In this document: in pieces, positions 16,226 to 63,625 of the stretch | Layout of the letters: the number at the start of each line of letters is the position of its first letter | Position numbering within the stretch: the first letter of the stretch is position 1 | Sequence record: OR896837.1 | Length of the DNA stretch: 64,000 nt | Origin: Escherichia phage vB_Eco_mar004NP2 | Strand: one strand, 5' to 3' | Made by a program: the position numbers and the translations under genes | The notes under the pieces: generated by a model | What the model was told of the DNA's origin: nothing | The model's database searches: none | The model's input: only the letters and a program-made list of their open reading frames with translations

Positions 16226-16600
16226 AATATTATTTCTTTAACCACAGCAAAGATAAGCCCAGCATACTAAAACCGCTAACTAATCCGATACATTTTTCTT
16301 CTATAGTAAAAGTATCTAGATTAAATGCTGTTATAGCTATTGGTATACACCATAATGCCATAAAAACTTGAGCTATCTTGTGTTTCATTTTGCTTTCCTT
16401 CTCTTCACTTTATAAAATATATTATACAGATAATAAAGCAGAATAGCAAATGAATTTTTAATAAATTTACTTATTGTGTAGGCCACCTGGAGGCTACCAA
16501 CCCCACGGCTGACAAAGAAGTTTGCGAGACCTCTCTTAAATGCCAGAATAGACCCGGCGGGTCTATCGGAACCTACATAATAAGTAAACTTTATAGTGTC

Positions 16601-18254: not shown

Positions 18255-19203
18255 TTACTTATTACGCATATCCATAATCATCTGGCCATCGTAACCAGTG
18301 CCAACCACAGTCTGCGGTACACCACCTTGATACTTCTGAGCACGAATCATTTCAACTTCTAGTTGCTTCCAGCGAATCATCTCAGGAGTAATGGTACGTT
18401 GCAGCGCGGCGTTAGCTTCAGCTTCTTTCTTAGCTGCGTACAGTTTAGCATCTGCGTCGCGTTCGTTAGCAATAGCTTGGTTATTACGAGCTTCACGGTC
18501 TGCTTCTGCTTGTTTAACTTTCTGCTGAGCTTCTTGTTCAACGCGAGCCAGTTCAGCTTTTGCAGCATTAACTTGCTCTTCACGAACTTTGGTATTCTGT
18601 ACCTGTTCCATGATTACTGGTGGCAAAGTAATATCCTGAAGAAACATCTGCTTAACTGTGTAGCCATATGGGCGTGCATACTCTTCAACTTCCTGTTGAA
18701 TTGCAGTTTGCAATTGAGCCTGAATTTTAGCATCAAATAAATCTTGTGCTTTAGGTACAGACTTACCAAACTCACGAATAGTAGACAGTAATTTTTCAGT
18801 TACATATTTGTCTAATGCTTGATCCTGAGTACCTGCATTAATACGGTTAATCGGTGCCTTAGAACCATCAAACTGCAACATAACAGTCAGGTCAACAGTG
18901 GATTTAAACTTATCCTGGCTAGGAACCTGAAGTTTATCTAATTTTTACAGCAATATCTTTTGTACTAAAAGTATCGAAAGATGCAAATGGGTTTACAGGA
19001 TGGAAACCAGGTAATACTGGGTTAGGATCTACTTTACCAAGAAATGTTTGGGTTTTAACCGTACCATCAGAAACAATAGTATATGAATTAAAAGCTAGGA
19101 TTAAACCTGCTAAACCAACTACAGCACCAATCCCCCAACGTTTAATAGTACGAATTACTTTCTGCTCAGAAGTTAGTTCTTTCATATTTTTAGTATTAAA
19201 CAT
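18255..19203 (-). pseudogene. SPFH/band-7 membrane protein, reading frame interrupted (two ORFs, 18934..19203 and 18255..18881)
   Basis: Upstream ORF gives TM anchor plus first SPFH segment; downstream ORF gives the rest plus coiled coil; frames differ by +1 across an A5 run. Confidence 0.5.
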
Positions 19204-45486: not shown

Positions 45487-46246
45487 ACTGAACTGGAACG
45501 TAGAAGGTGTAACCGAGTCTCTGAAAGCAAAAGCCACTGCTCTGGGTGTTGCTGTAATCTCTCAAGAACAAGTAGCTGCTATCGCTGCTGAACTGGCTGC
45601 TGAAACTGGCAAAGACGTTACCGCTCGCTCTGTTGGCTCTAAGCTGCGTAAAGAAGGTTTTGAAGTACAAAAAGCTAACGAAGTACAGAAATCCCCGTGG
45701 ACTCCTGAGCAGGAAGCTGAACTGGTTGATTTCCTGAACGCTCATGCTGGTCAGTATACCTATGCTGAAATCGCTGCTGCTGTAGCTGGTGGTCAATTTG
45801 GTGCTAAGCAGGTACAGGGTAAGATCCTGAGTCTGGAAATGACCGCCTCTGTTAAACCAACTGAAAAAGCTGCTGCTGTTCGTTCCTTCACTCCTGATGA
45901 AGAAACCGATTTTGTTAATCAGGTTGTTGCTGGGGCTACTATTGAAGCTATCGCTGCTCACTTCGGTCGTAATATCAAGCAGATCCGTGGTAAAGCTCTG
46001 AGCCTGCTTCGTGAAGGTCGTATCGCTGCTATGCCGGTACAGGAAACTTCAAGTGCTAAAACTCGTGAAGATCTGTTAGAAGGTCTGGATCTGGCTAACA
46101 TGACTGTTGCTGAGATCGCTGAGAAAACTGGTAAATCTGAGCGCGGTGTTAAATCTATGCTGTCTCGTCGTGGTCTAGTTGCTAAGGACTATGATGGTGC
46201 TGCTAAGCGTGCTAAACTGGATGCAAAAGCTGCGGCTGCTGAATAA
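45479..46246 (+). CDS. Ala-rich protein with four internal repeats, putative abundant DNA-binding protein
   Basis: Repeated ~50-aa units ending in basic helices; codon usage strongly biased to host-preferred codons unlike neighbours. Confidence 0.45.
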   Translation: MSKLNWNVEGVTESLKAKATALGVAVISQEQVAAIAAELAAETGKDVTARSVGSKLRKEGFEVQKANEVQKSPWTPEQEAELVDFLNAHAGQYTYAEIAAAVAGGQFGAKQVQGKILSLEMTASVKPTEKAAAVRSFTPDEETDFVNQVVAGATIEAIAAHFGRNIKQIRGKALSLLREGRIAAMPVQETSSAKTREDLLEGLDLANMTVAEIAEKTGKSERGVKSMLSRRGLVAKDYDGAAKRAKLDAKAAAAE

Positions 46247-46264
46247 TCTGGTAAATTAAACCTA

Positions 46265-46297
46265 AGGGGAGGGGGCTATGCTCCTTCCCCTTTTTTG
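46265..46297 (+). terminator. rho-independent terminator
   Basis: GGGGAGGGGG...CCTTCCCC hairpin + TTTTTT. Confidence 0.5.
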
Positions 46298-46329
46298 CAT
46301 TTAGAAGGCACGAAAGCGTGCAAAGGAGA

Positions 46330-47802
46330 ATGACCTTGTTTAACGTGCAAGCTGTAGTGTTGAAGATGCTTCTTGCTTCTGAACAGAAGCAAATAGCATT
46401 GGAAACATTCTCAAAACTGCATAAAGATCATTTTAATGACGCTTTCTCCTCAATTTACCAAGCCGTCCAGAATTATTATAAAAAATATAACACAATGCCG
46501 TCCATTGACGCACTTATGCTTGAAGCTAATAGGAACGCCCGCCTTTCTCAAGCTCTAGTCGTCTTAGCTAACACTCAAATTCCAGAAGTGAGCATGGAAC
46601 AGGCACTTGAAGTCCTAGAGGCCGAATATACACAAGATTTATTCCTAAAGCTTCTAGAAACAGATGTGCTTCAAGATTTAACAATGCTGGATCAGGGAGA
46701 AATTCTCAACCGAGTTGCCTCCCTTCACTTAAAATTAGAAGAGAAAGTAACGAATACTGGAAAAGTATTCAACGCAGATAACATGCGTATTTTCCAGAGA
46801 GAAGAAGATACCAAACTGAACTTAATCGCTCTTGGTATTTGTAATGAGTTCGACGCTCAAATTGGTTTAGCTCGCACAGAAACGTTACTGCTTGGTGGTT
46901 GGCGTGGTACTGGTAAATCCATTATCTGTTCAAACATACAGGTTCAGCAATATTTGAATGGAGATATTGCTCCATACTTCTCAATTGAGATGAAAGAACA
47001 TGAAGTATTTAGACGTAATCTAGCCATGTTAGCTGGTGTATCAGCATTAGCAATGCGTAATAATACTCTAGAAGGTGCAGCTCTGTTGAGATTGGCCAGA
47101 ACTAGAGCTAGGATGTTCAACGGGGGTGAGGAGCTTTTCGATAACTTCGTTAAACAGTATACAATGGCTAAGATGAGTGATTTCTACGATATGGAGAGTA
47201 AGCTAATAGAAGGATATGAGCTACATACTCCTATGATTATTGTTTATGACCCTGAGCTGTCCATTACAACAGTTGACGTAGAATTAAATAAATTAGTTGC
47301 TAGATACGGAGATAAAGTTACAGTAGCTTTACTGGACTATATTAACCAAACCCGACTTCCAGACTCTAAAACCATTGATATGTATGACTGGAAAGAACAG
47401 ATGGTTGTCAGCTCGTCTTTCAAATCTATCTGCCAGAAACATAACGTGGCTGGTGTAGCTCCTTACCAGATTGATCAAGATGGTAGAACACGTATGTCAA
47501 AGGGGATTCTTGATTCCGCAGACATGGCTGCTAATCTTAATGCTGCAAAAGCTGATAATGGTCAAGGTGCTATTATGTTTGACTTCGTTAAGACCCGTTC
47601 TTCTGATAGCGTGAAGTTTATGCCTAAAATGAACTGGGAAACCCTGCGGATGGATAACACTATCAACCTAGCAATGGAAGATATATCTCAAATGGAAGCT
47701 GAGTTCGTTATCCCTATTGAGAAGGATAAGCCGGCTCAATCTAAACGTGCTAAGAAAGACAAAGCTGAAAATTCAACAGGTGAACAGGCCAGCGATATAT
47801 GA
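46330..47802 (+). CDS. RecA-fold replicative helicase-like ATPase (DnaB-like)
   Basis: Walker A GGWRGTGKS; directly upstream of and coupled to the primase; start uncertain (ATG 46330 or TTG 46336). Confidence 0.5.
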   Translation: MTLFNVQAVVLKMLLASEQKQIALETFSKLHKDHFNDAFSSIYQAVQNYYKKYNTMPSIDALMLEANRNARLSQALVVLANTQIPEVSMEQALEVLEAEYTQDLFLKLLETDVLQDLTMLDQGEILNRVASLHLKLEEKVTNTGKVFNADNMRIFQREEDTKLNLIALGICNEFDAQIGLARTETLLLGGWRGTGKSIICSNIQVQQYLNGDIAPYFSIEMKEHEVFRRNLAMLAGVSALAMRNNTLEGAALLRLARTRARMFNGGEELFDNFVKQYTMAKMSDFYDMESKLIEGYELHTPMIIVYDPELSITTVDVELNKLVARYGDKVTVALLDYINQTRLPDSKTIDMYDWKEQMVVSSSFKSICQKHNVAGVAPYQIDQDGRTRMSKGILDSADMAANLNAAKADNGQGAIMFDFVKTRSSDSVKFMPKMNWETLRMDNTINLAMEDISQMEAEFVIPIEKDKPAQSKRAKKDKAENSTGEQASDI

Positions 47803-48689
47803 GTAGAATAACAGAACTACTTGATCTGAAAGGCATTGAGTATAAAGACACAGGTGGGGACATCCTCATCTGTTGTCTCAATCCAGATCATGACGATAAA
47901 CATCCAAGTTTGCGTATTGATCCTGAAACAGGTATTATGCACTGCTTGAGTTGTGGCTTCGGTAAAGGTATACCGAGCATTTACCATTATTTTAATGAGA
48001 CTCAGTACCGACAGTCTCCAAGACTATCGCAGGTACGTAAAAAGATTTCAGAGATTAGGAATGGATCTACGAATCTTGCAATTCCTGAATCTGCTTACCT
48101 TTTCGAAGGTGATTTCCGAGGTATAAGTTCTAAGACCTTGAAGAAATATTTTGCTTTCCAACACCAAGCAGATTGGGAGGGCAGAATTGTATTCCCAATC
48201 ACAGATGCTGTTGGACGCAATATCCTATTTTTGGGTCGTTCTATAAACAGTTCTGCCCCTCCTAAATACTTAGTAAAACCAAAACAAGTTTCACCACCGA
48301 TTTTCCCTGTACGATATAATACTCCAGTTCTTATTCTAGTTGAAGGTATCTTTGATATGCTGAACCTAGAGGATAATGGTATAGACTATGCTTCTTGCTG
48401 CTTTGGTACACATCAGTTTACTTCGGATAACATTGCAGATAAGTTCAGTCCTTATATTATTGCTGGTGTAAAAGTTGTTGTTATCTTACTAGATAATGAT
48501 GCTTCTGGTAATAAAACTGCACAAGCATTGGCTAAGCTAATTCGTACAAAAACGCGTTTAACACCTGTAGTTGCTAACTTTCTCCTACCTGAAGGCAAAG
48601 ATCCAGGTGATTTAAACAAAGATGAAATTGATATGTTAGCAAAACGTATTGAAATTTTAGTTGCTGAATCGCTTAAAGATTTGGTATAA
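47799..48689 (+). CDS. DNA primase (DnaG-like)
   Basis: Zn-finger CLNPDHDDKHPSLRIDPETGIMHCLSCG; Toprim EGIFDMLNL...DNDASG. Confidence 0.75.
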   Translation: MSRITELLDLKGIEYKDTGGDILICCLNPDHDDKHPSLRIDPETGIMHCLSCGFGKGIPSIYHYFNETQYRQSPRLSQVRKKISEIRNGSTNLAIPESAYLFEGDFRGISSKTLKKYFAFQHQADWEGRIVFPITDAVGRNILFLGRSINSSAPPKYLVKPKQVSPPIFPVRYNTPVLILVEGIFDMLNLEDNGIDYASCCFGTHQFTSDNIADKFSPYIIAGVKVVVILLDNDASGNKTAQALAKLIRTKTRLTPVVANFLLPEGKDPGDLNKDEIDMLAKRIEILVAESLKDLV

Positions 48690-57653: not shown

Positions 57654-58136
57654 ATGGCTGTAGATAGTAGAGAGAAAGGTAAACGTGGTGAATATCAGGT
57701 AAGAGATATTCTACGCGAGCGTACAGGTCTTGAGTGGGAACGTGTTCCTGGCTCTGGTGCTTTTGGCCAGAGCCACGGACTGAAAGGTGACATCTACCTT
57801 CCACCACAAAGCGGACACATTAGTAAATACTGCTTCGAAGTTAAGTGGTATAAAGATGATAATATATCAAGTAATTTATTTAATGTCGGTGAATCCACTC
57901 TAGAGAAGTGGTGGCAGCAATGCTCACGTGAAGGTGAGCAGATGAACTCCAAGTCTGCATTAATATTCAAAAAAGACAGAGGACAGTGGTTAATAGCTTT
58001 GGATAGCGCAGACCCGATGGTTGACAACTTAATGAGTCGTACCCATATGGTGTTAAATAAGAAAGACATGGAAATCGTAATTGGTTTATTTGAACCGTGG
58101 CTACATCATGCATCTGTTGAGGACTTAATTAAATAA
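57654..58136 (+). CDS. PD-(D/E)xK-type nuclease-like protein (resolvase-like)
   Basis: GDIY...EVK motif pattern; position between SbcC-like gene and flap endonuclease. Confidence 0.4.
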   Translation: MAVDSREKGKRGEYQVRDILRERTGLEWERVPGSGAFGQSHGLKGDIYLPPQSGHISKYCFEVKWYKDDNISSNLFNVGESTLEKWWQQCSREGEQMNSKSALIFKKDRGQWLIALDSADPMVDNLMSRTHMVLNKKDMEIVIGLFEPWLHHASVEDLIK

Positions 58137-59011
58137 TGAGTAAATCCTGGGGAAAATTTATTGAAGAAGAGGAAGCTGAAATGGCTTCCCGTCGTAACCT
58201 AATGATTGTTGATGGAACTAACTTAGGCTTCCGCTTCAAACATAACAATAGTAAAAAACCATTTGCCTCAAGTTATGTTTCCACTATTCAGTCTCTAGCA
58301 AAATCTTATTCTGCTAGAACTACAATAGTTTTAGGGGATAAAGGAAAGTCTGCATTCCGCCTAGAGCATCTTCCAGAGTATAAAGGGAATCGAGATGAGA
58401 AATACTCTCAGCGTACGGAAGAGGAAAAAGCGTTAGATGAGCAGTTTTTCGAGTATTTGAAAGATGCTTTCGAACTATGTGAAACTACATTCCCAACCTT
58501 CACTATTCGTGGTGTAGAAGCAGATGATATGGCAGCTTATATTGTTAAGCTGATTGGGCATCTATATGATCATGTTTGGCTAATTTCTACCGATGGTGAC
58601 TGGGATACTTTATTAACTGATAAAGTTTCTCGCTTCTCTTTTACAACACGTCGTGAATATCATCTTCGTGATATGTATGAGCACCATAATGTTGACGATG
58701 TAGAGCAGTTTATCTCTCTGAAAGCAATTATGGGTGATTTAGGGGATAATATCCGTGGTGTTGAAGGTATTGGGGCAAAACGCGGGTATAATATTATTCG
58801 TGAATTTGGTAACGTTCTGGATATTATTGATCAGCTTCCACTACCTGGAAAACAGAAATATATACAGAATTTAAATGCTTCGGAAGAATTGCTTTATCGA
58901 AACCTAATTTTAGTTGATTTACCTACCTACTGTGTGGACGCTATTGCTGCTGTAGGTCAAGATGTATTAGATAAGTTTACAAAAGATATTTTGGAGATTG
59001 CAGAACAATGA
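58136..59011 (+). CDS. 5'-3' exonuclease / flap endonuclease
   Basis: FEN signatures MIVDGTNLGFR, EADD, STDGD, GD.GDN.RGVEGIG. Confidence 0.85.
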   Translation: MSKSWGKFIEEEEAEMASRRNLMIVDGTNLGFRFKHNNSKKPFASSYVSTIQSLAKSYSARTTIVLGDKGKSAFRLEHLPEYKGNRDEKYSQRTEEEKALDEQFFEYLKDAFELCETTFPTFTIRGVEADDMAAYIVKLIGHLYDHVWLISTDGDWDTLLTDKVSRFSFTTRREYHLRDMYEHHNVDDVEQFISLKAIMGDLGDNIRGVEGIGAKRGYNIIREFGNVLDIIDQLPLPGKQKYIQNLNASEELLYRNLILVDLPTYCVDAIAAVGQDVLDKFTKDILEIAEQ

Positions 59012-59454
59012 TTAAAATTAAATTAACTCATCCAGATTGTATGCCTAAGATTGGTTCCGAAGATGCCGCAGGTATGGATCTGCGAGCATTCTTTGGTACA
59101 AACCCTGCTGCAGATTTACGTGCTATTGCGCCAGGCAAATCCCTAATGATTGACACCGGTGTCGCGGTAGAAATTCCGCGAGGTTGGTTCGGTTTGGTGG
59201 TTCCTCGTAGCTCTTTAGGTAAGCGCTATTTGATGATTGCAAACACCGCAGGGGTGATCGACTCAGACTATCGTGGTACTATTAAGATGAACCTCTATAA
59301 TTACGGTTCTGAAATGCAAACTCTGGAGAATTTCGAGAGACTTTGTCAGCTAGTGGTATTGCCACATTACTCAACTCATAATTTTGAAATCGTTGATGAG
59401 TTAGAAGAGACTGTACGTGGAGAAGGAGGATTTGGAAGTTCAGGAAGTAAGTAA
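59008..59454 (+). CDS. dut: dUTPase
   Basis: Motifs AGMDLRA, GVIDSDYRG, GGFGSSG. Confidence 0.9.
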   Translation: MIKIKLTHPDCMPKIGSEDAAGMDLRAFFGTNPAADLRAIAPGKSLMIDTGVAVEIPRGWFGLVVPRSSLGKRYLMIANTAGVIDSDYRGTIKMNLYNYGSEMQTLENFERLCQLVVLPHYSTHNFEIVDELEETVRGEGGFGSSGSK

Positions 59455-59478
59455 TCTACATATAAAATAAATAATAAA

Positions 59479-59513
59479 CCCCAGTGGATTTTGTCCACTG
59501 GGATTTTCTTTTA
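59479..59513. terminator. bidirectional rho-independent terminator between early and late genes
   Basis: CCCAGTGGA-TTTTG-TCCACTGGG hairpin flanked by A-rich and T-rich runs. Confidence 0.65.
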
Positions 59514-61283
59514 TTGTGATACTAATTGTACCTTTAATTGCTCAAGCTCTTTCTCTAGATCTTCAATCCGTTTAATAAGATCTTGCACAACATGCATAGT
59601 GTCAAGAAGCATTGGAGTTGTATCTAATTCCTTTTGCTCCTGCTCTATTCCGTCATCATTATAAAATTTTCTAGTTTTTACATAAAGTGGTTCTATAGTC
59701 TCTACTTGCTGAGCAATAACCCCACGTCGGACACGAGATTTTTCATCGTTATTATATACAAAGGATTGGAATTCTAATCCTTTTAATACCTCGATGGACT
59801 TAGTTGCGTCTATAGCCTTAATATCATGCTTTAAGCGAGAATCAGATACAGCATTTAATTGCAAAGTATAGGTTGCTGAAGCACCTGGCCACCAAGAATA
59901 AAAATAAATACTATTATTATTCGGCTGAATTTTTAAACGCACACCAAATTTATTATCATCATCTCCCGCTACCTGCCAACAAGAATCTGCAAATGAGCCT
60001 AAGTCATTATGAATTAATCCAAAATGTGCAGATGTCTTATACCCTGCGGAAGAAGACTGGGAACCGCTCAATATACTATTAAAGTTAAATGTACTACCTA
60101 TATTGACCTCGTTCTGAGAAAGAGTACCTTGTACCCAGCCAGTCTGAGACCACGCCATGCCAGTAACTAATCTAGCTTTAAAACGATCCGTTACAAAATC
60201 CCCATTTATCTACAAGCTGGGCGGAATTCGATTTACCGGTAGATTTATTGTCTATTAGTAGTTCAGTAGAGTAGGTGCCACCAATAGTAGCTTTAGCTCG
60301 TAGTGTACTTACAGCCTCACTACTAGTACCTACTTTATACTCAGATAGTACACTCCCGCCATAAACAGTAGTACCAGTATTAGGTTTGACAGCATCACCA
60401 CTAATAACACTCCACGAAGTCTTTGCAGCCACGAACCCACCAGAAGCACGGATTACCCAGACACCTATAAAGCTGTTTGGAATAATAGTACCTTTTATTC
60501 CATAACGCCCATAAACAGGGTCCGCTAAGTTTGCATCAAAACTAAATCCGTATTGGTTATCAGGATTAACTACGGCGAATGATTTAGATGCACCTCCAGG
60601 AGCGGCACCTAAGCCGTTTTCACCACCAATCGCCCCAATAAGACCAAATCTAGATGAATATCTATTAAGCGCTTCTTCATATGCACCAGCAATAGCGCCA
60701 GGAAAACTACCAGTAATATTGGGTGCTGCAGCTTCTGATATTGAACCAGCTTGACCAGCATCCCCCCCCCCCCCACCGTCACCACGAGCGAATAACCCTT
60801 TGATTGAATTTAGTTGCACACCATTACGATCTGGGACGCGGAAAGTAGTGGTACCATCTCCCGTAGAATATTTCCCACGTTGTCCTACATCTGCTAACCA
60901 AACTGAATCATCTATAGCTCCAACCATTTGTGCATACGCCCAAAGTTCAGGCCAGTCAGCCCTGTTAAGAAGCTGCCCATCAGAAACTACCTCATAAGGT
61001 TGAATATACGCACGGCTATCTCGAAGATGAAAATCCCCACCCCGTAGTTCATAACACCATTCATTGTGGGTCCTACTGTGCCAGTATTAAGTTTGTTCTC
61101 CACCCAACGCTTAGTTGCGGCATCATAGTCACTAACAGGATCTCCAGCAAGAGGGGTAGATCCAATAGGACGCACATTTAGCCATGCTGCACGGTCTGCT
61201 AAGTCACTCAGGTTATTATTTTTATTAAGTGACTCATTTTTAAGTTTTGTAATATCCGTAGGAATTACTGTTTTAGTTACCAT
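59511..61283 (-). pseudogene. tail fiber protein with C-terminal intramolecular chaperone/autoprotease domain, split into three ORFs by two frame breaks
   Basis: N-terminus MVTKTVIP...PLAGDPVSDYDAATKRWV; open frame continues in another phase (HNEWCYELRGGDF...); C-terminal ORF carries the SDSRLK autocleavage-type motif. Confidence 0.55.
60762..60774. repeat. 13-nt C/G homopolymer inside the tail fiber coding sequence
   Basis: Read directly; encodes the Gly run GDGGGGGD on the minus strand. Confidence 0.9.
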
Positions 61284-61292
61284 TATAAAACC

Positions 61293-61571
61293 TTATGCCC
61301 ATACTCTAAGAGGCTGTTCTAGCTGAACTATAAAAGGCTCGAAGGATTCGTAAGTAAAGGATTCATCAAGAATCCTTACATTAATATAATACCCTTCATT
61401 ACGGATGCATCTAGGTTCCTCATCACCTAGCGGAGAGATTTCAGTATAAGTATATCCAATTTCGTCAAGCATTATTTGGTTTTGCAAATTTTCATTAGTA
61501 TCCCACTCTATTTTTAAGAGAAAATCTTTATATGCTGATTTATCCGTGAATTTTAGGATTATATCTCTCAT
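61293..61571 (-). CDS. hypothetical small protein between the two fiber genes
   Basis: ATGA overlap with upstream fiber gene stop. Confidence 0.4.
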   Translation of the reverse strand: MRDIILKFTDKSAYKDFLLKIEWDTNENLQNQIMLDEIGYTYTEISPLGDEEPRCIRNEGYYINVRILDESFTYESFEPFIVQLEQPLRVWA

Positions 61572-63625
61572 ACATACTCCTTCATTTGTCTATCAGTTAG
61601 TTCCTTATGCCAGATTCTAAAGTTTCTAACGTGCCCGAAAAGATGACGTTCGCCCCTAGTTGTTTGTCCTCCAATCCTTATAGTAGCCGTTGATTGTATG
61701 TATCTCCATTCCGTTTTTGTTTCGCTTGATATTCTGGCATTACTTACACAGCAAGTATTGTAATCACTCTTTACTCTCATTCCCATGATCATCTTTTTTA
61801 GTTTTGCATTCTCGTAAACCCTTCTGTTTGATTTACCTATATCGCAATAAGGGAAACCATCATTATCGCCTTCGGCAGATCCGAAAGCAAGAATAATAGC
61901 CGCTTCGGTTTGATGACCTCTGGTATCAAAAACACGTGGCGCTGCACTTGGCGTTATACTCCAGTTTTTATGAGCTTCCACAAGTACTGTAAACGGCAAA
62001 TTGTAAAGGTTGTTTTTTATTGGTAATGTGACCATATCGCTTGCCCGTGTTACTGGAGTCTCTTCTGTAATAATAAACGATGAAGCGCACGCCCCGCCTT
62101 CAACTTGAGGGGTAGCTACCTGTAAGTACTCTCCACCAGAATAAGTGCCAGGTGAAACAGGTGGAGCAATTTGGATCTGAGAGCTAACCATATTATCAAT
62201 AGCTTCAGATTGATATGTAACCTCGAAATAAATCCATCCATTAGATTCTTTCTCCGCTCGGGCGGTTATTCTTGCAGCCCCTACTTCCGTTTTTCTAATG
62301 GACATATCTGTTATATTAAGATATGCATCTGCTAGATAAAAATATGCGGATCCGTCATATCTTTCAAATCTTATACGACATTGTATATTAGCACTATCGC
62401 TTTTTACACGACATGATGTTGTAACATACTTTTCAGTTCCGGTAACATCGACACCTCTTCCTCCTGAAATCGCAGCGATATTCATTGCCGTATTTGTCCC
62501 AATTTTTTCGTCCTTTATTTGAAACCGCCCATAAGTAAATCCAAACTCATCAACACCACTTTCTGTTATAGTTACACTTGTTGTAGCTTCCCACTTAGAT
62601 GGCGTAAGTGAGTTAAGATGATAGTTAGTTCTTTGCCCCTCAATGAGCAAACCATCCTTTTCAAATCTAGGTTCATTAATCCCCGCAACAGTTAATACAC
62701 CTGATTTATTAATATATGTCGCAGTTGATGCACGTGTAAAGCTAACAATCTTGTCACTGGGCAGTGTTATTTCCTCATCACCGACTGTTATTTTTTTTTT
62801 ATAGTCTGGCGCAAAGCCGGTGATCATATCTAGAGAATCGTTAAACGGTATCCATACATCTGGAAGAGGTTGAATGTCGGGGGTAGAATTAGCAGCAGCT
62901 TCTGATCTATCAGCCTCAGTTTTTGAACGATCGGCTTCAGTTTTAGCAGTATTAGCACTATTAGCAGCATTAGTAGCTTGTTTTCCTGCTTCAGTAGCAG
63001 AATTAGCAGCACTAGTTGCAGAATTAGCAGCTTGGTTTTTTAGCGTGGTAGTTTCTGTTATCGCGCTATTCTTAATGCCTTGTGTGTCTGTTTTTAACTG
63101 CGCAACATCTGCCTTTATAGCTGTTGTCTCTGTTACAGCACTGTTTTTAATGGCCTGAGTATCTGATTTTAGCTGCTCAACATCTGATTTTAAGCCTTGA
63201 ATAGTAGTTACTGACTGACTAGCTGAAGTTGCGGAACTAGCTGCGTTATTCTCACTAGCTTTGGCTTTAGTCTCACTAGCTTTGGCTTTAGTCTCACTAG
63301 CTTTTGCATTAGTCTCGGATACTTTAGCAGCGGATGCAGATGTTGCAGCTTGTCTAGCGAATGTTTCTGCTTCATCCCTAAAACCTTTAGAATTGGCAGC
63401 AGACGCAGCAGCATTAGTCTCACTAATTTTAGCGTTAGTTTCGCTAATTTTTGCAGCCGCAGCAGATTTAGCAGCAGCCTCTATAGAAGATACTAACTCA
63501 TTAGCAGTAATAGAGCTAATAGAATTTCCAAGAGTTACTGTGTATCTAGGAAATTTACTAGCAGTAGCTTTAGTATCATCAATATTTAATATTTGTTGTA
63601 CAATAATCTTAGTAGTTATTGCCAT
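61568..63625 (-). CDS. L-shaped/side tail fiber protein (685 aa)
   Basis: N-terminus [18 protein letters not shown]..., repetitive SETNAKASETKAKASE coiled-coil repeats typical of side tail fibers. Confidence 0.7.
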   Translation of the reverse strand: MAITTKIIVQQILNIDDTKATASKFPRYTVTLGNSISSITANELVSSIEAAAKSAAAAKISETNAKISETNAAASAANSKGFRDEAETFARQAATSASAAKVSETNAKASETKAKASETKAKASENNAASSATSASQSVTTIQGLKSDVEQLKSDTQAIKNSAVTETTAIKADVAQLKTDTQGIKNSAITETTTLKNQAANSATSAANSATEAGKQATNAANSANTAKTEADRSKTEADRSEAAANSTPDIQPLPDVWIPFNDSLDMITGFAPDYKKKITVGDEEITLPSDKIVSFTRASTATYINKSGVLTVAGINEPRFEKDGLLIEGQRTNYHLNSLTPSKWEATTSVTITESGVDEFGFTYGRFQIKDEKIGTNTAMNIAAISGGRGVDVTGTEKYVTTSCRVKSDSANIQCRIRFERYDGSAYFYLADAYLNITDMSIRKTEVGAARITARAEKESNGWIYFEVTYQSEAIDNMVSSQIQIAPPVSPGTYSGGEYLQVATPQVEGGACASSFIITEETPVTRASDMVTLPIKNNLYNLPFTVLVEAHKNWSITPSAAPRVFDTRGHQTEAAIILAFGSAEGDNDGFPYCDIGKSNRRVYENAKLKKMIMGMRVKSDYNTCCVSNARISSETKTEWRYIQSTATIRIGGQTTRGERHLFGHVRNFRIWHKELTDRQMKEYV
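62791..62800. repeat. 10-nt T/A homopolymer inside the tail fiber coding sequence
   Basis: Read directly; encodes KKK on the minus strand. Confidence 0.9.

What the first reader, a model, noticed from the sequence alone, without database searches (positions are those of the whole stretch)
60762..60774. 13-nt poly-G (coding strand) tract kept in frame inside a tail fiber gene
A homopolymer this long is highly prone to slipped-strand mispairing. Inside a receptor-binding fiber gene it could act as a phase-variation switch for fiber expression or host range, or it could be an assembly artifact. It encodes a Gly5 linker.
Basis: partly seen in the sequence, partly recalled or inferred. Interest (0 to 1): 0.55.

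Follow-up and report, generated by a model that had tools for sequence, protein, structure and literature searches.

The report
Slippage-prone poly-G in tail-fibre gene
A run of 13 G's sits in the side tail-fibre gene (ltfB) of a T5-like phage; its length differs between near-identical phages (6, 7, 10, 13, with 8 inferred), so it is a real copying-slippage hotspot, but in this genome the gene is already broken elsewhere, so the run is not controlling the fibre here.

Summary
The run is real: 13 C on the + strand at 60762-60774, which is 13 G on the coding (-) strand. It is the only G/C run longer than 5 in 64 kb. It is in frame with both flanks and encodes GDGGGGGD.

The gene is the ltfB-type lateral tail-fibre gene of a Tequintavirus of the mar004NP2 species. 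Relatives show a series of tract states:
- Interrupted GGGGGAG or GGAGGGG: 6 sequences.
- G7: 10 sequences.
- G10: SPLA5b.
- G13: this window.
- Out-of-frame G6: KS_S14, plus a second genetic background.
- Out-of-frame G8: inferred from one protein.

This is the pattern expected of a slipped-strand hotspot. An independent assembly of raw reads (Logan, SRR27112525) reproduces G13 exactly, so it is not a submitter's consensus artefact.

The phrase "kept in frame in a fibre gene" holds only locally. In this window ltfB is cut into 98-, 249- and 215-aa ORFs by two further 1-nt indels, and it has also lost an invariant Ala.

My reading is a genuine hypermutable homopolymer in a dispensable, decaying fibre gene. 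An evolved ON/OFF switch is possible but unproven. Similar tracts are known in Campylobacter phages and in T-even phages, so this is a new member of a known kind.

The parts
60762..60774 (-). Uninterrupted G13 run on the coding strand (C13 on +). Encodes four of the five Gly in GDGGGGGD; the last G is the first base of the Asp codon.
   Evidence: Relatives carry G6, G7 or G10 or interrupted versions.
59511..61283 (-). ltfB-type lateral tail-fibre gene (590 codons if the two 1-nt indels are repaired). It is a single ORF in the relatives and disrupted here.
   Evidence: PDB hit 8hqz_d (DT57C LtfA residues 526-875), E=1.6e-132. The mar004NP2 orthologue is called an ltfB orthologue in PMC6563131.
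60987..61283 (-). ORF fragment 1 (98 aa). It starts at the true start codon and ends at a premature stop caused by the -1 indel.
61035..61038 (-). G4 run (C4 on +) that is G5 in all five close relatives. This is a -1 frameshift upstream of the poly-G run.
60178..60927 (-). ORF fragment 2 (249 aa, identical to WWD13552.1). It holds the G13 run. Its frame is open from 61086 and is homologous to relatives on both sides of the run.
60205..60207 (-). AAA on the coding strand (TTT on +) that is AA in all relatives. This +1 frameshift returns translation to the original frame.
59511..60158 (-). ORF fragment 3 (215 aa, identical to WWD13551.1). It holds the distal part of the fibre and the C-terminal intramolecular chaperone.
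59688..59846 (-). Peptidase_S74 intramolecular chaperone domain (SDSRLKHDIK...). It is lost from the product in every out-of-frame allele.
   Evidence: PF13884, E=3.4e-12, residues 480-532; 6f45.
61185..61190 (-). (GCA)2 on the coding strand where all relatives have (GCA)3. This removes one Ala from the RAAAW motif, which has three Ala in every homologue whose sequence was read.
62791..62800 (-). A10 run on the coding strand (T10 on +) in the adjacent ltfA-like fibre gene. It is A7 in relatives, so this in-frame +3 adds one Lys (DYKKKITV). It is the only A/T run longer than 6 in the window.
61568..63625 (-). ltfA-like fibre gene (685 aa here, 796 aa in relatives). In mar004NP2 the product is confirmed as a structural protein by MS.

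Best explanation
The run is a genuine, lineage-specific hypermutable mononucleotide repeat in ltfB, the gene for the branch lateral tail fibre of a T5-like phage.

Origin (inferred): more distant relatives carry GGT GGG GGA GAT, an interrupted tract. A synonymous GGA->GGG change produced an uninterrupted G7.

Shown: among genomes with the uninterrupted tract, alleles of 6, 7, 10 and 13 are seen in DNA, and G8 is seen at the protein level. No frameshifted allele was seen among the six interrupted-tract sequences.

Mechanism (inferred from general knowledge of simple-sequence repeats): slipped-strand mispairing during replication.

Consequences:
- Changes of +3n add Gly residues to the variable loop directly after the conserved RGDGG motif. 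This loop lies at the junction between the conserved collar-like module and the exchangeable middle module.
- Changes of +/-1 truncate LtfB at about residue 190-225. That removes the distal part and the C-terminal chaperone, so no LtfB branch can be made.
- LtfB is dispensable on laboratory or rough hosts, so such knock-outs survive.

In this genome the run is in frame locally but sits in an ltfB that is already broken by two other slippage indels. Here it is a hotspot in a decaying gene, not an operating switch.
For: - Run and frame.
- Outlier status: the run is far longer than any other G/C run in the window. The ancestral G7 is already the longest G/C run in the whole 107.6-kb mar004NP2 genome.
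- Allele series read at DNA level:
  - Interrupted tract in JLBYU40, Lindwurm, WP85, PH204, L049 and L051.
  - G7 in mar004NP2, PMBT29, phA11, one IMG/VR UViG, one gut metagenome contig and five further contigs.
  - G10 in SPLA5b, G6 in KS_S14 and G13 here.
- KS_S14's ltfB equals mar004NP2's except for the single lost G.
- A second background carries the G6-type truncated product (P0136).
- P0131 starts MTVGGDAGQ, which requires G8.
- Independent assembly: Logan SRR27112525_10 is 100% identical to window 57777-63158, including G13.
- Position: more distant homologues have RGDGG followed by a variable loop with no G run. Nucleotide homology with many other phages stops at query base 128-129, where the run begins.
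- Dispensability of LtfB on laboratory strains: PMC4728585 section 3.5 and PMC10713586.
- Broken gene in this window.
Against: - No read-level data are available, so heterogeneity within one phage population, the hallmark of hypermutability, is not shown.
- The G8 allele and the second G6 allele rest on protein sequences only.
- Some alleles in public records could be sequencing errors.
- The window genome has 9 unique indels against 1-2 in each of three relatives. This could mean the underlying reads have homopolymer errors, which would make '13' uncertain.
- The direction interrupted -> G7 is inferred from the distribution among relatives, not from a rooted tree.
- The AlphaFold monomer model is of low confidence around the run (pLDDT 34-37), so 'surface loop' is not demonstrated.
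Confidence: 0.6

Rival explanations
1. The run is an evolved contingency locus. It is maintained by selection because reversible +/-1 slippage switches the LtfB branch fibre ON and OFF, and +/-3 changes tune a loop. This would give the phage population a bet-hedging mix of host ranges, as described for poly-G tracts in Campylobacter phage receptor-binding genes.
For: - Both ON alleles (G7, G10) and OFF alleles (G6 in two backgrounds, G8) occur in nature among near-identical genes.
- The two longest homopolymers in this part of the genome both lie in lateral fibre genes: G7/13 in ltfB and A7/10 in the ltfA-like gene.
- LtfB determines growth on particular O-antigen hosts in DT57C and DT571/2 (PMC4728585).
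Against: - G7 is by far the commonest allele and is short for a dedicated switch.
- No within-population variation, reversibility or phenotype has been shown.
- The tract is confined to one shallow lineage, and other carriers of the same protein module have interrupted tracts.
- In this genome the gene is dead for other reasons.
- ltfB-like genes are also found truncated at unrelated positions in other assemblies (P0137-P0140). Loss is therefore common without any special switch.
Confidence: 0.2
2. The run length is a sequencing or assembly artefact. Under this reading the length of 13, and the neighbouring 1-nt frameshifts, are homopolymer miscalls, and the true tract is G7 or G10 in an intact gene.
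For: - The window genome has six unique 1-nt indels and three unique 3-nt indels in 46 kb. Relatives with equal or more substitutions have 0 unique 1-nt indels.
- Nine of the eleven window-specific short-repeat changes (six +1, +2 TA, +3 T, +6 G against -1 C and -3 TGC) are insertions.
- Three of these indels break conserved genes: ltfB twice and an SPFH-like gene once.
- The Logan contig for this sample is only 5.5 kb, whereas other T5-like Logan contigs are about 100 kb.
Against: - An independent k-mer assembly of the raw reads gives the identical 5,382 bp, including G13, A10 and both frameshifts.
- The two long-run changes are exact multiples of three (+6 and +3). Selection predicts this; miscalling does not.
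- The six 1-nt indels in the 46-kb block fall in non-coding DNA (3) or in two plausibly dispensable genes (3). None falls in the other ~38 kb of coding sequence, which suggests filtering by selection.
- SPLA5b provides an intermediate G10 allele.
Confidence: 0.15
3. The run is a structural glycine linker whose length is itself the selected trait. A longer hinge between the collar-like module and the distal module would change fibre flexibility or reach, and the homopolymeric coding would be incidental.
For: - The run lies exactly at a module junction after the conserved RGDGG motif.
- All intact alleles differ by whole Gly codons (Gly3, Gly4, Gly5).
- The region is predicted as non-regular coil (low confidence).
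Against: - A selected linker need not use GGG codons exclusively. Homologues fill the same loop with mixed residues and codons.
- Out-of-frame alleles exist.
- The longest allele occurs in a gene that is otherwise inactivated, where linker length cannot be under selection.
Confidence: 0.05

Closest known systems
Hypermutable poly-G tracts in Campylobacter phage receptor-binding and other genes (Sorensen et al. 2021, Cell Rep 35:109214; cited in PMC10877375)
   Same: A G homopolymer lies inside a phage receptor-binding or fibre gene, and length changes by slippage give full-length or truncated protein. What that paper showed is taken from its title and my own knowledge; only the citation was seen here.
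   Different: The phage family and host differ (a Demerecviridae coliphage or Salmonella phage, against Campylobacter myoviruses), and the proteins are unrelated. Only one such G tract is present here. No population-level heterogeneity or phenotype has been shown for this case.
Phage 'contingency loci' in T2/T4 (A-runs in agt and rIIA; preprint PMC12633550)
   Same: Mononucleotide runs of 6 or more in coliphage genes give frequent, reversible +/-1 frameshifts.
   Different: Those are A-runs of 6-9 in non-structural genes. [quoted passage not shown] Here the run is G/C, up to 13 nt long, and lies in a fibre gene.
Bacterial SSR-mediated phase variation (poly-G/C tracts in Campylobacter, Neisseria and Haemophilus surface genes; own knowledge, and PMC6625227 listed)
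   Same: Same sequence feature and the same presumed mechanism (slipped-strand mispairing), acting on a surface-interaction gene.
   Different: The replicon is a lytic phage copied by its own polymerase. Switching rates and mismatch-repair context are unknown.
LtfA and LtfB branched lateral tail fibres of DT57C and DT571/2 (PMC4728585, PMC10713586; PDB 8hqz)
   Same: Same locus and architecture. Residues 14-370 match DT57C LtfA 526-875 (E=1.6e-132), there is a C-terminal S74 chaperone, and the mar004NP2 orthologue is called an ltfB orthologue in PMC6563131.
   Different: DT57C reads RGDGGASSTGG at this position, with no homopolymer. The window's copy is not an intact ORF.

Membership tests
SSR contingency locus / phase-variable gene | An uninterrupted mononucleotide repeat inside the coding sequence, long enough to slip (about 7 or more G/C) | tested here: met
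   G13 at 60762-60774. Relatives carry G7 or G10.
SSR contingency locus / phase-variable gene | Repeat length is polymorphic among otherwise near-identical genomes | tested here: met
   G6, G7, G10 and G13 at DNA level in genes with 0-2 substitutions between them. G8 is inferred from P0131.
SSR contingency locus / phase-variable gene | Length changes toggle the reading frame, so both ON and OFF alleles exist | tested here: met
   Met in relatives only. KS_S14 (G6) gives 223-aa and 306-aa fragments. P0136 shows the same truncation in another background. In this window the run is in frame, but the gene is broken elsewhere.
SSR contingency locus / phase-variable gene | High-frequency, reversible switching within one population | not testable with these tools
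   There is no access to reads. A read-length histogram from SRR27112525 or an amplicon assay is needed.
SSR contingency locus / phase-variable gene | The switch changes a phenotype that is under fluctuating selection | not testable with these tools
   The only evidence is by analogy: LtfB is needed on some O-antigen hosts and is dispensable on laboratory strains in DT571/2 (PMC4728585).
LtfB-type branch lateral tail fibre of T5-like phages | Location in the lateral-fibre locus, downstream of an ltfA-like gene | tested here: met
   Gene order is ltfA-like (61568-63625), a 92-aa ORF, this gene, then dUTPase on the other strand.
LtfB-type branch lateral tail fibre of T5-like phages | Sequence homology to characterised DT57C fibre proteins, and a C-terminal S74 intramolecular chaperone | tested here: met
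   8hqz_d at E=1.6e-132 and 6f45 at E=3.4e-5. PF13884 at E=3.4e-12.
LtfB-type branch lateral tail fibre of T5-like phages | An intact open reading frame able to give a full-length fibre | tested here: not met
   Three ORFs of 98, 249 and 215 aa, caused by a -1 at 61035-61038 and a +1 at 60205-60207. The Logan assembly reproduces this arrangement.
Polyglycine-rich (PGII) adhesin domain, as in phage S16 gp38 | Several glycine-rich motifs that alternate with variable segments to form a polyglycine sandwich | tested here: not met
   There is a single Gly run only. Homologues have RGDGG plus a mixed loop. The PDB match to 6f45 covers only the C-terminal chaperone region.
Programmed ribosomal frameshift site | Both frames carry conserved coding sequence downstream of a conserved slippery site across relatives | tested here: not met
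   Relatives read straight through in one frame. The alternative frames after the run terminate within 20-55 codons of unconserved sequence.

The most novel reading that the evidence does not exclude
In this Tequintavirus lineage the two lateral tail-fibre genes carry two of the genome's three longest homopolymers: G7-13 in ltfB, the longest G/C run, and A7-10 in the ltfA-like gene, tied for the longest A/T run. Under the most novel reading these are selected contingency loci. Slippage would continuously generate sub-populations with and without the LtfB branch, and with different loop lengths, giving host-range bet-hedging in a classical coliphage or Salmonella phage group where it has not been described.
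Probability: 0.15. Interest if true: 0.65.

Novelty: new member of a known kind. Interest (0 to 1): 0.4.

Why it matters
T5-like phages are widely isolated and are proposed for biocontrol of E. coli and Salmonella. Their lateral fibres decide which O-antigen types they can infect.

A homopolymer that readily gains or loses bases in ltfB has three practical consequences:
- Lysates may be mixtures of fibre-plus and fibre-minus particles.
- Host range may drift during propagation.
- Genome records may disagree at this site, whether for biological or technical reasons.

The case also gives a clean natural series, from interrupted tract to G7 to G6, G8, G10 and G13. This series could be used to measure how run length sets the slippage rate of the T5-type replication machinery. 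If the switch reading were true, it would extend poly-G-driven receptor-binding variation from Campylobacter phages to a major coliphage family.

Tried and rejected
- **Flank-pattern scans.** Scans of IMG/VR and of the metagenome collection each returned only one locus, both G7. The same kind of scan of bacterial genomes gave 14 chance matches in unrelated MAGs.
- **The search for related loci in IMG/VR.** It gave one close relative and 20 more distant ones without a run. These were useful only for the loop comparison.
- **DNA for the cluster members that imply G8 and a second G6** (P0131, P0133). Those alleles therefore rest on protein sequence.
- **Exact look-up of ten synthetic alleles** (G4-G16 in the mar004NP2 background). 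Only the G6 product was found.
- **AlphaFold monomer of the middle fragment.** Mean pLDDT was 58, and 34-37 around the run. This is too poor for a fold search, so I did not run one.
- **Window as a re-sequencing of LR027384.** Rejected: there are 268 mismatches and block differences, even though the proteins carry the mar004NP2 organism name.
- **Programmed frameshifting or transcriptional slippage** as a way to read through the three ORFs. Rejected: relatives have one frame, and a stop lies between the -1 site and the run.
- **A polyglycine adhesin domain.** Rejected: there is only a single run.
- **Two-colour Illumina poly-G read-tail artefact.** Considered unlikely, because the run is internal with unique sequence on both sides and two assemblers agree on it. 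The platform could not be checked.
- **Literature.** No paper in the library links Tequintavirus, homopolymers and tail fibres.

Full report
**1. The observation**

The + strand has exactly 13 C at 60762-60774, which is 13 G on the - strand. In the - strand frame that is homologous to relatives on both sides, the codons read GGT GGG GGG GGG GGG GAT, giving FARGD-GGGGG-DAGQ. The window is 38.7% G+C. It holds 116 G/C runs of 4, 16 of 5, none of 6-12, and this one of 13. Runs of 9 or more G/C are expected 0.02 times per dinucleotide-preserving shuffle. The run is therefore real, at the stated place, and far beyond chance.

**2. What the gene is**

The window is a T5-like phage (Tequintavirus). 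The region 59450-61650 matches SPLA5b, vB_Eco_mar004NP2, KS_S14 and PMBT29 at 99.3-99.5% and JLBYU40 at 94%. In four of these five the corresponding gene is a single ORF of 1770-1773 nt annotated 'tail fiber protein'. It lies after an ltfA-like fibre gene and a 92-aa ORF, and before dUTPase on the other strand. In KS_S14 it is annotated as two ORFs.

The repaired product has a C-terminal Peptidase_S74 intramolecular chaperone (PF13884, E=3.4e-12). Its residues 14-370 match DT57C LtfA residues 526-875 (PDB 8hqz_d, E=1.6e-132). The paper describing mar004NP2 calls this gene (MAR004NP2_00162) an ltfB orthologue (PMC6563131). In DT57C and DT571/2, LtfB is a branch fibre attached through LtfA. It is needed on particular O-antigen hosts and is dispensable on laboratory strains (PMC4728585; PMC10713586).

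**3. The gene is broken in this window**

Compared with all five close relatives, the window's copy has four differences:
- one G fewer in a G5 run (C4 at 61035-61038);
- one A more (TTT on + at 60205-60207);
- one GCA repeat fewer (61185-61190), which removes an Ala from the RAAAW motif (every homologue sequence read has three Ala);
- the longer poly-G run.

The result is three ORFs: 61283-60987 (98 aa), 60927-60178 (249 aa, holding the run) and 60158-59511 (215 aa). Translation from the true start stops at 60987, before the run. So 'kept in frame' is true only relative to the immediate flanks.

Against mar004NP2, the gene shows 4 indels and 0 substitutions.

**4. Where the window comes from, and whether G13 is an artefact**

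The 249-aa and 215-aa ORFs are exactly WWD13552.1 and WWD13551.1, from a 98,746-bp record labelled Escherichia phage vB_Eco_mar004NP2. The window is nevertheless not the LR027384 genome. It differs from it by 268 mismatches and by block differences.

A Logan contig assembled independently from the raw run SRR27112525 is 100% identical to window 57777-63158. It includes G13, the A10 run and both frameshifts. These features are therefore in the reads and not only in the submitter's consensus.

Against this, the genome is unusually rich in indels. A four-way alignment of 46 kb gives these counts:

| Genome | Unique substitutions | Unique indels |
|---|---|---|
| Window | 93 (36 in one patch) | 9 (six of 1 nt) |
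| PMBT29 | 162 | 1 |
| mar004NP2 | 27 | 2 |
| SPLA5b | 13 | 1 |

None of the relatives' unique indels is 1 nt long.

Of the six 1-nt indels, three are non-coding and three fall in ltfB (two) and an SPFH-like gene (one, at 18942). None falls in the other ~38 kb of coding sequence, although 88% of the block is coding and only 20-26% of runs of 4-5 or more are non-coding. The two long-run changes are exact multiples of three: G7->G13 and A7->A10.

I read this pattern as filtered by selection, and therefore mostly real. The platform is unknown, so I leave 0.15 for an artefact.

**5. The run in relatives**

At the DNA level the tract states are:

| Tract state | Sequences |
|---|---|
| Interrupted GGGGGAG | JLBYU40, Lindwurm, WP85, PH204, L051 |
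| Interrupted GGAGGGG | L049 |
| G7 | mar004NP2, PMBT29, phA11, one IMG/VR UViG, one gut metagenome contig, five further metagenome or Logan contigs |
| G10 | SPLA5b |
| G13 | this window |
| G6 | KS_S14 |

KS_S14's gene is otherwise identical to mar004NP2's, and it is annotated as two fragments.

At the protein level:
- P0136 is the same G6-type truncated product in a different genetic background.
- P0133 is the matching 306-aa downstream fragment in a distinct strain.
- P0131 begins MTVGGDAGQ, which requires G8.

More distant homologues, including DT57C LtfA and kuravirus fibres, have RGDGG followed by a mixed 5-8-residue loop with no run. Nucleotide homology with many of them ends at query base 128-129, where the run starts. 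The run therefore marks a module junction.

G7 is already the longest G/C run in the whole 107.6-kb mar004NP2 genome. The A7 in the ltfA-like gene ties for the longest A/T run.

**6. How it most likely works**

Shown:
- a lineage-specific uninterrupted G run;
- length polymorphism among near-identical genes;
- both in-frame alleles (Gly3, Gly4, Gly5) and out-of-frame alleles;
- no frameshifted alleles among the six interrupted-tract sequences.

Inferred:
- a synonymous GGA->GGG change created G7;
- slipped-strand mispairing then produced the other lengths;
- +3n alleles lengthen a loop after the RGDGG motif;
- +/-1 alleles end the protein after 190-225 residues, without the distal part or the chaperone, so no LtfB branch is made;
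- such phages persist because LtfB is dispensable on many hosts.

A run of 13 G should be much less stable than a run of 7, so lysates of a G13 phage should be heterogeneous. In this genome, however, ltfB is already inactivated upstream, so the run has no regulatory role here.

An evolved bet-hedging switch is possible (0.2). It needs evidence of reversibility and of a phenotype. The AlphaFold monomer model is too weak around the run (pLDDT 34-37) to say more than 'no regular structure predicted'.

**7. Comparison with what is known**

The closest precedents are:
- hypermutable poly-G tracts in Campylobacter phages (Sorensen et al. 2021, cited in PMC10877375);
- the 2025 preprint on contingency loci in T2 and T4 (PMC12633550). 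[quoted passage not shown]

No paper in the searchable library links Tequintavirus fibres with homopolymers. This is therefore a new member of a known kind. It is moderately interesting, and it has practical relevance for the stability of T5-like phage preparations and for annotation.

**8. Verdict**

- The best explanation is a genuine slippage hotspot in a dispensable and, in this genome, already broken ltfB (0.6).
- Interest is 0.4.

Noticed in passing
window 62791-62800: T10 (A10 on the coding strand) in the adjacent ltfA-like fibre gene. It is A7 in SPLA5b, PMBT29 and mar004NP2, so this in-frame +3 adds a Lys (DYKKKITV). It is the only A/T run longer than 6 in the window. Both homopolymers of 7 or more in this region lie in fibre genes, and both have expanded by multiples of three.
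   Followed up: partly
window 18934-19203 and 18255-18881 (indel at 18942): A conserved 315-aa gene is split into 89- and 208-aa ORFs by a window-specific T4->T5 insertion. The gene is annotated 'lipoprotein' in SPLA5b and gives a weak SPFH/Band_7 hit.
   Followed up: partly
window 17400-63390: This genome has 9 unique slippage-type indels, against 1-2 in each of three relatives of equal or greater substitution divergence, and nine of its eleven short-repeat changes are insertions. Possible causes are a slippage-prone lineage, its propagation history, or read errors. The cause is unexplained.
   Followed up: partly
window 61185-61190: Loss of one GCA repeat removes an Ala from the RAAAW motif, which has three Ala in every homologue whose sequence was read. 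This fits relaxed constraint on ltfB in this phage.
   Followed up: yes
window 61568-63625 (about 63430-63480): The ltfA-like gene encodes 685 aa here and 796 aa in SPLA5b, mar004NP2 and PMBT29. The difference lies in the Ala/Ser/Glu/Thr/Lys-rich repeat region (AKASETKAKASE...), another length-variable repeat in a fibre gene.
   Followed up: no
window 46000-48000: 36 of the 93 window-unique substitutions cluster in this 2-kb bin, in the replicative helicase region. This suggests a recombinant patch.
   Followed up: no
window 60640-60900 (query base 128-129): Nucleotide homology with many unrelated phages (kuraviruses such as NJ01 and EP335, phage LAMP, other T5-like phages) ends at query base 128-129, where the run begins. 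The RGDGG/run position is therefore a mosaic module boundary.
   Followed up: partly
window 16545-16565: A window-specific G insertion turns AGACCCGCCGGTCT into the perfect palindrome AGACCCGGCGGGTCT, in an intergenic hairpin of the tRNA region.
   Followed up: no
proteins P0137-P0140: ltfB-like genes of other T5-like phages are found truncated at several unrelated positions in public assemblies. Loss or mis-assembly of this gene is therefore common.
   Followed up: no
window 46270-46320: A T5->T6 change lies in the U-tract of a terminator-like hairpin (GGGGAGG...CCTTCCCC TTTTTT) that overlaps the annotated start of the replicative helicase in relatives. The window's ORF starts 13 codons later at a GTG (46318), so the annotated start in relatives may be too far upstream.
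   Followed up: no
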